NCBI GenBank assembly: GCA_048939995.1
Contig: JBHLOY010000002.1
Coordinates: 1 to 64,000 of the forward strand
DNA: 64,000 nt
DNA from: Promethearchaeota archaeon
GTDB lineage: Archaea; Asgardarchaeota; Lokiarchaeia; Sigyniarchaeales; SOKP01
Direction of reading: 5' to 3'
Below the pieces are notes generated by a model, which was not told where the DNA came from, searched no databases, and worked only from the letters and a program-made list of their open reading frames with translations. The translations under genes were made by a program, and so were the position numbers. Every line of letters begins with the position of its first letter. Position 1 is the stretch's first letter. Of this stretch, positions 22,658-38,825 are shown piece after piece.

Positions 22658-23962
22658 TTGAGTAAAATGAAAATGCAAGAGAAAATTATTGATGATAAAA
22701 TTCATGAAAAAATGACATTGGAAAATGTATTTAAAATTTTTAATGATAATGTCTTTCCGATGTTGAATGATGAGGAAAAGGAGTACTGTAAAGAACTTCA
22801 GAATTTTTGTTTGGAGCTCCATCCAAAAATAGATAAATCTAAAGATGTGTATGAATTATTTCCAGAATTAGGAAAACATGGTTATTTACAACGAATAAAT
22901 GAGTGGAGAGATTTTACTCCATATGGAATGAAAAAAGAAATTTTATTGGGAACCCATCTCTCCTTATTAGACCCCCAACTTGAACTGGCAAGATTAGCAA
23001 GTGGAATATTGGCAGGAAACCCCACATTTCATTACTATACCCATGGTGGCACTGGAGATACTATACAAAAAGTTCAGGATGAGCTTATGTCTGGTCGAAA
23101 GATTGGGTGCATTGGAATAACGGAACCTGCAAGAGGTTCTGATGCAGTCAACATGACTACTATTTGTACAAAAACCGATGATGGAGTCATTTACAATGGT
23201 GAGAAAGTATATACCACTAATGGTCCTAAAGCAGATTATTTTTGTTGCTATGGAGTTTACGACGAAGCTCAGCCAAGAGACACAATGGTGCAAGCTATGA
23301 TAAAACGTGAATTTGGAGTTCGAACAGAGCGTCTAAAAATTAATTCAGTTCCTCGTGTGCATATTGCTCATACCATTTTAAACAATGTAAAAGTCCCAAA
23401 AGATTATGTTTTAGCTGATGATGGATTAGGATATGTAAGATTATTTGAAGGATTAGTTCCTGAACGATTAGGTATAGTGAATTAAGCAATTTCTGCTTTC
23501 ACGCTTAAAATGGGTTCAGGAATAGGTATTTGTTGGGCAGGATTAATATATGGGATTATCTATACTAACCTAAGGCAACAATTTGGAAAACCAGTTATCA
23601 GATATCAAGGTGTAGGCTATGGATTAGCAGATTTGCTTACAAAATCAACTGCCGCAACAAGTTTAGCACTTCAGGCAGCAACTATCTATGATGAAAAAAT
23701 CCTTTTTGCTGATAAACCTTCAAAAGATGCAGAGAAATGGTGCGCTGCAATTTCTTCGCAGGGAAAGTATTATACAGCAAAGCTTACACACGATATTTGT
23801 TATGAAGTACAACAGCATATGGGGGGAGTTTCTGTAACAGATAATACCCCTGTGGATGAGTTAACGGATGTAAGCAAAATTGAAGAAGTCATTGGTGGGG
23901 CAAGAAATATACAACTACTCTTAATTCAATCCCAGATTCAAAGATTTCTAAGATTAATATAA
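22658..23962 (+). CDS. Acyl-CoA dehydrogenase interrupted by a 33-nt BHB intron (join 22658..23475, 23509..23962; about 423 aa)
   Basis: ORFs 22658-23485 and 23510-23962 are in the same frame and are the N- and C-terminal halves of one ACAD (ITEPARGSD, GEKVYTTNG, ERL, RQQFGKP, QHMGG); removing the intron gives ERLGIMGSGIG. Confidence 0.88.
23476..23508 (+). other. Putative BHB-type mRNA intron (33 nt)
   Basis: Central helix AGGU(23470-73)/GCUU(23503-06); bulges AUA(23474-76) and AAA(23507-09); intron stem GUGA/UCAC plus AAGCA/UGCUU; exon stem UUCCUGAAC(23457-65)/GUUCAGGAA(23514-22); contains in-frame UAA. Confidence 0.8.
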
Positions 23963-37206: not shown

Positions 37207-37731
37207 ATGGGAAAAATAAAAAACGTACTCTTTGTCTGTAGTGGAAATAATAAATAATTACCCATAAATACTGCAAGGAGTCCAGCAGCAGAATATCTCT
37301 CGAAATGGTTAAAAGAAACAAAATTCAAAGAAGATTTAAAGGACGTTCATTTTAACTCTGCTGGTCTTTACAGTTATTATAAAACTCCCCAAGAAGGCAC
37401 ATCTCATTATCTTGAATCAAAAGGTATTGATTTCAGCGATTTTAGGGGAAAAGTGATTACTGAAGAATTAATCAAAAAGCAGGACTTAATCTTAGGTTTT
37501 GAAGAAAAATGGCATATTAGAAAATTGAAAAGAAGATTTAAAAATCTGAAAGAGTTAGATAAAAGAATTTTCTTGTTATTAGATTTTGCGGGAGAAAAAG
37601 GAGACCTTGAAATTCCAGATCCCATTAATTTTGAACCAGAAGAGTATAGAACAACAATTAAAAGAATTGAAAAAGCATTACCTAAAGTATTACAAAAGAT
37701 AATCGATATAAATAAGACTGATCTAAAATGA
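37207..37731 (+). CDS. Low-molecular-weight protein tyrosine phosphatase/arsenate reductase family, interrupted by a 21-nt BHB intron (join 37207..37246, 37268..37731; about 167 aa)
   Basis: ATG 37207 gives MGKIKNVLFVCSGN, then TAA at 37255-57; the same frame resumes TARSPAAEY...SAG...QDLIL...IPDP; spliced P-loop is CSGNTARS. Confidence 0.88.
37247..37267 (+). other. Putative BHB/BHL-type mRNA intron (21 nt)
   Basis: Central helix GUGG(37241-44)/CCAU(37262-65); bulges AAA(37245-47) and AAA(37266-68); exon stems GUA/UAC and ACUCUUUGU(37227-35)/GCAAGGAGU(37273-81); short intron stem UAAU/AUUA with C37261 extra. Confidence 0.78.
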
Positions 37732-38216: not shown

Positions 38217-38825
38217 TTAATGCTTCTTAAAAAGATTCTTTTTAGATAAGAGGCTTAACTCAGAAATTAACCAGCATACTTCTTCATAAGTGGCAGATGA
38301 TTTTAGAATTTCTTCTGATTTTTTCTTGATCTGATTTTCAGTGATTTTACCTTTTTCTTTTATAATAGCTAGTTGTAGTTTAGCAAGTTCTCTACATAAT
38401 TCTTTATAATCTCGTTTTTTCTGTGTTAATTCATATGCTGCTAAATTGATTTCTGCAATTAGATCTGGTTCTAATCCCGCTTCAATAAGTTCTTTAGTAT
38501 CCTCTATTTCTAATTCTAATTCAGGGCGTACTTCAATTATTCCATTATTAGCCCCCTTAGATTTATAAGTATCCATAATTGCTAAAAATCCTCCAAATTC
38601 TTGATTTTGCTGAATCACTTGAATTTTTGCTGGGATACTTCTTTCTCTATTAAGCTTATTAGCCCTATTTAAACTCAAATCCTTTTTCTTTTTAGAAGCT
38701 TTTTGGCCTTGCCATATATAAATTATGTTTACTCCATCAATGAGATAGACTCTAGTACTATCATTAAAGTTCAATTTTGCAGTTTTTCTTAGAGAACCAT
38801 TCTCAGCAACGTTATAAAAAGGCAT
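38217..38825 (-). CDS. Gelsolin-like domain protein
   Basis: VYLID..IIYIWQG..AS gelsolin-repeat signature plus helical C-terminus. Confidence 0.7.
   Translation of the reverse strand: MPFYNVAENGSLRKTAKLNFNDSTRVYLIDGVNIIYIWQGQKASKKKKDLSLNRANKLNRERSIPAKIQVIQQNQEFGGFLAIMDTYKSKGANNGIIEVRPELELEIEDTKELIEAGLEPDLIAEINLAAYELTQKKRDYKELCRELAKLQLAIIKEKGKITENQIKKKSEEILKSSATYEEVCWLISELSLLSKKNLFKKH

What the first reader, a model, noticed from the sequence alone, without database searches (positions are those of the whole stretch)
37227..37281. 21-nt BHB intron inside the C-x5-R P-loop of an LMW-PTP, next to an intron-less paralog
The gene starts at ATG 37207, which the ORF track missed. ATAATAAATAATTACCCATAA (37247-37267) splits the Asn codon (A|AT) of the catalytic loop. 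Removal yields CSGNTARS, matching CLGNTARS of the uninterrupted tandem paralog at 37728, an internal control. A flanking AAATA repeat leaves six possible boundaries from sequence alone, and the GUGG/CCAU helix with two AAA bulges selects one of them. Exon stems (3 bp plus 9 bp with G-U pairs) support the fold. The intron-side stem is slightly relaxed (extra C), as in BHL-type substrates. Readthrough could not preserve C-x5-R spacing, so an active enzyme requires exact excision.
Basis: partly seen in the sequence, partly recalled or inferred. Interest (0 to 1): 0.88.

Follow-up and report, generated by a model that had tools for sequence, protein, structure and literature searches.

The report
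Mobile mini-intron in Asgard phosphatase gene
A 21-base insert that breaks the active site of a phosphatase gene in an Asgard archaeon is very probably a tRNA-style intron cut out of the messenger RNA; relatives carry versions of it at the same spot in two different copies of the gene, and it seems to spread between genes by recombination.

Summary
Observation confirmed. A 21-nt insert (37247-37267) with an in-frame TAA splits the Asn codon of the C-x5-R loop of an LMW phosphatase gene (37207-37731) in a Promethearchaeia (Lokiarchaeia) genome. Ten distinct inserts (20, 21, 25, 33 nt) sit at the same site in relatives, five in each of two paralogs. Their sequences differ, but they share one boundary, the one the bulge-helix predicts, and a fold with compensatory pairs. 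Interrupted genes remain under purifying selection (dN/dS 0.06-0.14). The genome has an (αβ)2-type EndA with the broad-specificity loop, and RtcB. Its only detected EF-1α, MetRS and purA genes carry similar inserts, so mRNA splicing looks necessary here. Distribution is patchy. One carrier is 96% identical to intron-less relatives except for a ~130-nt patch holding leader, exon 1 and intron, which points to spread by recombination with the exon flanks. No spliced RNA was seen. In the papers I could search, cbf5 is the only archaeal coding sequence with such an intron. This scan has noted many similar Lokiarchaeia introns on other DNA; none of those notes covered this intron's relatives or its spread.

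The parts
37207..37246 (+). Exon 1 of LMW phosphatase paralog 1 (13 codons plus the first base of the Asn codon); holds the catalytic Cys
   Evidence: all 10 carriers have ATG/TTG exactly 40 nt before the intron
37247..37267 (+). 21-nt BHB/BHL-type intron, phase 1, in-frame TAA at 37255-37257
37268..37731 (+). Exon 2: rest of the P-loop (N-T-A-R-S), D-loop IPDP, stop TGA 37729-37731 overlapping the paralog's ATG; called alone in public data as a truncated 155-aa protein (P0001) lacking the Cys
37227..37240 (+). 5' strand of the exon-exon helix (9 bp outer at 37227-35, 3 bp inner at 37238-40)
37241..37247 (+). Central helix 5' strand GUGG (37241-44) and 5' bulge AA^A (cut after 37246)
37248..37261 (+). 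Intron stem-loop UAAU/AUUA with 5-nt loop, plus unpaired C37261 that turns the 5' bulge into a 3x1 internal loop
37262..37268 (+). Central helix 3' strand CCAU (37262-65) and 3' bulge AA^A (cut after 37267)
37269..37281 (+). 3' strand of the exon-exon helix
37728..38204 (+). Tandem LMW phosphatase paralog 2 (158 aa, CLGNTARS), intron-less here; its orthologs carry the same-site intron in G010, G020, G022, G065 and L082

Best explanation
The insert is a short archaeal endonuclease-type intron in an mRNA. SHOWN in sequence: the pre-mRNA can fold into exon helix / 3-nt bulge / 4-bp central helix / 3x1 loop / intron hairpin, and cutting after the second base of each bulge restores C-S-G-N-T-A-R-S. 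INFERRED: the cell's (αβ)2 EndA makes both cuts, its L1/CSL loop tolerating the relaxed junction, and RtcB joins the exons to give an active 167-aa LMW phosphatase. Unspliced RNA stops after 16 codons. INFERRED, weaker: the intron encodes nothing, yet it has spread among paralogs and lineages as a short cassette, because recombination carries it together with the exon flanks that form its splice site. It persists in the catalytic loop because only exact removal is tolerated there. A regulatory role (phosphatase output tied to EndA activity) is possible, but I have no evidence for it.
For: (1) Ten distinct same-site inserts of 20, 21 (x6), 25 (x2) and 33 nt; all restore C-x-G-N-T-x-R; the only boundary common to all is the BHB-predicted one. 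(2) RNAalifold independently gives this structure; 94.5% of cells pair (38-57% when slid); 4 pairs change on both sides, including G-U to C-G in the central helix (exon base with intron base) and A-U/G-C/U-A in the intron stem. (3) Exon-exon duplex energy is -10.5 to -15.7 kcal/mol in 8 carriers versus -4.3 ± 2.1 in 107 intron-less homologs. (4) dN/dS between carriers is 0.06-0.14, like intron-less pairs at 0.11-0.19; the D-loop Asp is kept. (5) The genome encodes EndA α and β; α aligns best to Aeropyrum pernix EndA, with K and R matching K44/R46 of the specificity loop; Asgard EndA is described as (αβ)2 with the L1 loop (PMC5829648); RtcB is intact. (6) The only detected EF-1α, MetRS and purA genes of this genome carry 33-, 32- and 30-nt inserts with 4-bp helix geometry. 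(7) Spread: starred branches force at least 5 changes; one clade of paralog-2 carriers is rejected (AU p 3e-107); G020 is a mosaic.
Against: No RNA evidence. The motif is relaxed, and in G020 and G065 one central-helix pair is mismatched, so some copies may splice poorly or be dead. Carriers are related and share flanks, so the covariation counts are few independent events. Every genome carrier checked also keeps intron-less paralogs, so necessity cannot be argued from this gene alone. Pairwise dN/dS includes time before the intron was gained.
Confidence: 0.87

Rival explanations
1. A random insertion (slippage or 5-nt target duplication) inactivated a redundant paralog; the hairpin is incidental.
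For: An AAATA direct repeat flanks the insert; intact paralogs exist; most homologs lack the insert.
Against: Ten different inserts at one site in two paralogs; the repeat shrinks to 3 nt in G010 and to none in G020; compensatory pairs; purifying selection; chance rate at most 0.24%. Truly broken homologs in other genera show plain frameshifts or stops with no insert.
Confidence: 0.04
2. It is a real intron family, but this copy, or the G020/G065 copies with mismatched helices, is spliced little or not at all and is carried as a weakly harmful element.
For: Relaxed junction; intron stem probability only about 0.6; central-helix mismatches in two copies; redundancy of paralogs.
Against: This copy has a full 4-bp helix at probability above 0.93; cbf5 introns with unconventional motifs are spliced in vivo (PMC2738675); G000 vs G019 dN/dS is 0.14 at dS 0.51.
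Confidence: 0.05
3. The gene is expressed without splicing: by stop readthrough or ribosomal bypass, or as the annotated Cys-less 155-aa protein from an internal start.
For: Public gene calls list the 155-aa form; the hairpin could in principle act on a ribosome.
Against: The stops differ (TAA, TAG, double TAA, or frameshifts with 20 and 25 nt); readthrough adds 7 residues to the P-loop; exon 1 with its start codon and Cys is conserved in all 10; the fold has EndA geometry and pairs exon with exon.
Confidence: 0.02
4. The insert is excised from DNA (recombination at short repeats) in part of the population rather than from RNA.
For: Direct repeat in this copy; G006 has the carrier-type flanks without the insert.
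Against: The repeat is not conserved; four assemblies carry the insert unchanged; no insert-free copy of the junction elsewhere in the genome; G-U pairs and bulges fit RNA.
Confidence: 0.02

Closest known systems
cbf5 pre-mRNA intron of Crenarchaeota (Watanabe 2002; Yoshinari 2006; Yokobori 2009, PMC2738675)
   Same: Short (cbf5: 16-44 nt), ORF-less, phase 1 in a catalytic-motif codon, relaxed BHB, (αβ)2 EndA, variable sequence and length at a fixed site.
   Different: Different phylum (Promethearchaeota) and gene family. cbf5 is explained by one ancestral gain with losses; here the pattern is patchy, spans two paralogs and includes a mosaic gene. The genome has several such genes. cbf5 splicing was shown by cDNA; this is not.
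5' UTR BHB intron of HVO_1309, Haloferax volcanii (PMC7714728)
   Same: EndA substrate in an mRNA, 46 nt.
   Different: Lies in the UTR, so it does not interrupt a reading frame; homodimeric EndA.
Non-canonical tRNA introns of Asgard and TACK archaea (bioRxiv 10.64898/2026.10.13.758758; PMC3241643; PMC5829648)
   Same: Same motif and enzymes, similar size, repeated gains, persistence where exons allow the motif.
   Different: The host is an mRNA. The tRNA study found no general route of gain; here one route (recombination with flanks) has a visible footprint in one genome.
Homing archaeal rRNA BHB introns (as reviewed in PMC2738675)
   Same: BHB introns with patchy distribution among close relatives; co-conversion of flanks is typical of homing (my own knowledge).
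   Different: No endonuclease ORF in any of 10 copies (20-33 nt); no cutting enzyme in trans identified.
LMWPc family PF01451; YwlE-type protein arginine phosphatases (PMC7772506)
   Same: C-x5-R-S loop, D-loop Asp-Pro, Thr at loop position 5.
   Different: No second loop Cys; only distant similarity to YwlE (E about 1e-9 for an intron-less ortholog); no McsB-type kinase found with PF00217. Substrate not established.

Membership tests
Archaeal EndA-spliced (BHB/BHL) intron | 4-bp central helix between exon 1 end and intron end | tested here: met
   GUGG/CCAU, probability 0.93-0.98; 97% of cells paired across 10 copies, one compensatory pair
Archaeal EndA-spliced (BHB/BHL) intron | 3-nt bulges on opposite strands, with cuts after the 2nd base matching the exon boundaries | tested here: met
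   Only shift 0 fits and is the only boundary shared by all 10 copies (without G020 three remain, including it)
Archaeal EndA-spliced (BHB/BHL) intron | Exon-exon outer helix | tested here: met
   3 + 9 bp; much stronger in carriers than in intron-less homologs
Strict canonical hBHBh' motif | Both bulges closed directly by helices | tested here: not met
   One extra unpaired base makes the 5' bulge a 3x1 internal loop in the consensus: a relaxed, BHL-like form
Archaeal EndA-spliced (BHB/BHL) intron | Host encodes a broad-specificity EndA and a ligase | tested here: met
   α and β subunits, K44/R46-equivalent loop, RtcB
Archaeal EndA-spliced (BHB/BHL) intron | Excision from RNA in vivo or by EndA in vitro | not testable with these tools
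   No transcript reads available; no full-length spliced form among 240 listed homolog proteins
cbf5 intron family | Located in the catalytic Asp codon of cbf5 | tested here: not met
   Host gene is PF01451: it works like the cbf5 intron but is not its homolog
Homing-endonuclease intron | Intron-encoded endonuclease ORF | tested here: not met
   All 10 copies are 20-33 nt
LMWPc (PF01451) phosphatase | C-x5-R(S) P-loop and general-acid Asp | tested here: met
   After removal CSGNTARS; IPDP present; exon 2 alone scores 60.7 bits against a cut-off of 23.2
YwlE-type protein arginine phosphatase | Thr at P-loop position 5 and activity on phosphoarginine | tested here: inconclusive
   Thr present (PMC7772506); no family model passed its cut-off; PF00217 not found in the 98%-complete genome; activity untested

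The most novel reading that the evidence does not exclude
Lokiarchaeia splice many ordinary mRNAs with the tRNA machinery, and these ORF-less mini-introns move between lineages and paralogous genes as a cassette with the exon flanks that build their own splice site.
Probability: 0.6. Interest if true: 0.85.

Novelty: new variant of a known kind. Interest (0 to 1): 0.72.

Why it matters
The papers I could search know one archaeal coding sequence with an EndA-type intron (cbf5). This case, with the interrupted EF-1α, MetRS and purA genes of the same genome, indicates routine mRNA splicing in a group of the closest prokaryotic relatives of eukaryotes. It is mechanistically unrelated to the spliceosome but resembles tRNA-ligase-dependent mRNA splicing. 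The LMW phosphatase locus adds a test of how such introns are gained, an open question for archaeal tRNA and mRNA introns: the same site is occupied in two paralogs, and one genome shows the recombination patch. In practice, gene callers truncate these genes and lose their catalytic residues, so Asgard proteomes are mis-annotated. The 55-nt substrate makes an in vitro test simple.

Tried and rejected
A strict genome-wide BHB-plus-frame-join scan (timed out, 36, 39) gave 271 candidates, 13 near the MFE. It recovered this intron, fwdA and one on C23 but missed EF-1α, purA and metG, and several of the 13 look spurious; with no null model I do not use it as a count. Rfam gave nothing above threshold. 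The promoter scan is sigma-70-based and at chance level. The insert has no convincing second copy in the genome (two 3-mismatch AT-rich hits), so no donor was found. No 100%-identical full-length protein (a possible spliced cDNA) was found. Outside the genus, the flank pattern matched 0 of 112 other genomes of the order, and PF01451 searches of 82 of them showed no P-loop insert in the listed matches: not found in those searched. Sec/Pyl readthrough was rejected (TAA, variable stops, frameshifting lengths). Literature searches found no report of Asgard mRNA introns; the library lacks most subscription papers. No structure or complex prediction was run, as neither bears on the claim.

Full report
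Observation. The gene starts at ATG 37207 and meets TAA at 37255 after 16 codons. Removing 21 nt gives a 167-aa frame with CSGNTARS, 37% identical to the tandem paralog at 37728 (CLGNTARS). Six cut points are equivalent in sequence because AAATA is repeated. The central helix holds at probability 0.93-0.98 in longer context, and only the 37247-37267 boundary puts both cuts after the second base of a 3-nt bulge. The same geometric test is passed by 0.24% of shuffles of the insert, 0.06% of random 21-mers at this site and none of 200,000 random sites. Three other assemblies carry the identical gene.

Organism. The genome is 3.75 Mb, about 30% GC and 98% complete. Congeneric carriers are MAGs titled Promethearchaeota or Promethearchaeia, one 'Hermodarchaeota', and NCBI labels on close homologs are similarly mixed. 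I infer Promethearchaeia (Lokiarchaeia); the genus name was not shown.

Relatives. Among 42 genomes of the genus, 6 carry an insert at this site: G000 and G019 in paralog 1, and G010, G020, G022 and G065 in paralog 2. Metagenome contigs add L067, L071 and L080 (paralog 1) and L082 (paralog 2). Lengths are 20, 21 (six), 25 (two) and 33 nt. All have a start codon 40 nt upstream, and all restore C-x-G-N-T-x-R-S in frames of 157-167 aa. The only boundary common to all ten is the one the bulge-helix predicts. G020 alone fixes it; without G020 three positions remain, including that one. Unspliced, each gene meets a stop or leaves the frame.

Structure. RNAalifold on the ten sequences returns exon helix, 4-bp central helix, 3-nt bulges and an intron stem with one extra 3' base. 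94.5% of cells pair against 38-57% for slid controls, and four pairs change on both sides. The clearest is the first central pair, G-U in paralog 1 and C-G in most paralog-2 copies, linking an exon base (Ser versus Thr codon) to an intron base. These are few independent events among kin. Two copies have a central mismatch (G020, G065). Exon-exon pairing is -10.5 to -15.7 kcal/mol in carriers versus -4.3 ± 2.1 in 107 intron-less homologs.

Selection. Downstream of the intron, Nei-Gojobori dN/dS between carriers is 0.06-0.14 (G000 vs G019: 0.14 at dS 0.51), no higher than in intron-less pairs, and the D-loop Asp is kept. Broken homologs in other genera look different: plain frameshifts or stops without inserts.

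Machinery. The genome has two EndA genes. The α subunit's best solved relative is A. pernix EndA, and its GISKPR aligns with the loop holding K44 and R46; K44 is needed to cut relaxed BHL motifs (PMC3241643). Asgard EndAs are described as (αβ)2 with this loop (PMC5829648). RtcB is intact. Following earlier scan notes, I checked other genes myself. EF-1α (33 nt, in the P-loop), purA (30 nt) and metG (32 nt, frameshifting) each carry an insert with a paired 4-bp helix whose removal restores the motif, and tblastn finds no second full copy. A living cell needs EF-1α and MetRS, so some form of removal must occur in this organism. This is the strongest indirect support.

Mechanism. Inferred: EndA cuts after 37246 and 37267, RtcB ligates, and the mRNA yields a 167-aa LMW phosphatase. 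Its Thr at loop position 5 resembles arginine phosphatases (PMC7772506), but no McsB-type kinase domain was found and no specific family model passes, so the substrate is open.

Spread. On a tree built from the protein beyond the loop, 8 carriers among 114 genes need 7 changes, at least 5 forced by well-supported branches; one clade of paralog-2 carriers is rejected. The 38 exon bases around the intron are 82-92% identical between carriers of different paralogs, whose proteins are only about 35-45% alike, and usually only 61-74% identical to each carrier's nearest intron-less relative. G020 is the clearest case. Its gene body is 96% identical to intron-less G017, and the DNA further upstream is 92% identical to G005. 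Between them lies a patch of about 130 nt (leader, exon 1, intron, about 14 nt of exon 2) that matches other carriers: 93% over 58 nt to G022, and 76% over about 100-125 nt to G010 and L082. Point mutation cannot easily give this; recombination can. G006 has carrier-type flanks without the intron, which suggests a precise loss or the original landing site. The alternative, an intron older than the duplication and lost many times, may explain part of the pattern but not G020. An assembly chimera in G020 is not excluded.

Comparison. It works like the cbf5 intron: short, relaxed motif, phase 1 in a catalytic codon (PMC2738675). A 2020 paper names cbf5 as the only coding-region case and adds a 5' UTR intron (PMC7714728). 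A 2026 preprint on Asgard tRNA introns reports repeated gains with no general route and does not treat mRNAs. It is not a cbf5 homolog, not a strict canonical BHB and not a homing intron. This scan's notes list many similar Lokiarchaeia mRNA introns (34 findings); I treat them as leads, not support.

Verdict. The feature is real and is very probably a spliced mRNA intron (0.87); direct RNA evidence is missing. New variant of a known kind; interest 0.72.

Noticed in passing
window 23476-23508 (+), acyl-CoA dehydrogenase-like gene: A second 33-nt insert with an in-frame TAA; this boundary gives a paired 4-bp helix AGGU/GCUU and restores ERLGIMGSGIG. Likely another BHB-type mRNA intron in the same window.
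   Followed up: partly
G000 C11 near 167,340 (-), EF-1α: 33-nt insert with stops in the GHIDHGKS P-loop; only copy detected.
   Followed up: partly
G000 C7 near 109,920 (-) purA; C6 near 82,170 (+) metG; C17 377,423-377,452 (-) fwdA: 30-, 32- and 30-nt inserts with 4-bp helix geometry interrupting conserved motifs.
   Followed up: partly
G000 C23 175,418-175,447 (-): 30-nt BHB-shaped insert with TGA in a gene that looks AIR-synthase-related by eye (PurM/HypE-like, not tested); found by my own scan.
   Followed up: no
window 38217-38825 (-): Small protein with a single gelsolin repeat (PF00626) convergent with the phosphatase pair; same neighbour in several relatives.
   Followed up: no
G000 C28 151,087-151,542 (-): Third, divergent LMW phosphatase (CSVNTARS), intron-less.
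   Followed up: no
G000 whole genome: ARAGORN finds only 20 tRNA genes in a 98%-complete genome, over half with introns, suggesting many multi-intron tRNAs are missed.
   Followed up: no
L023 (G006 paralog 2): Has the carrier-type exon flanks and strong exon-exon helix but no intron: candidate precise loss or empty target site.
   Followed up: partly
L096 (G107 C60) and L097 (G105 C10): ArsC-like genes each with one in-frame TGA at positions where the other has W or is non-Cys; they look like nonsense changes, not Sec.
   Followed up: partly
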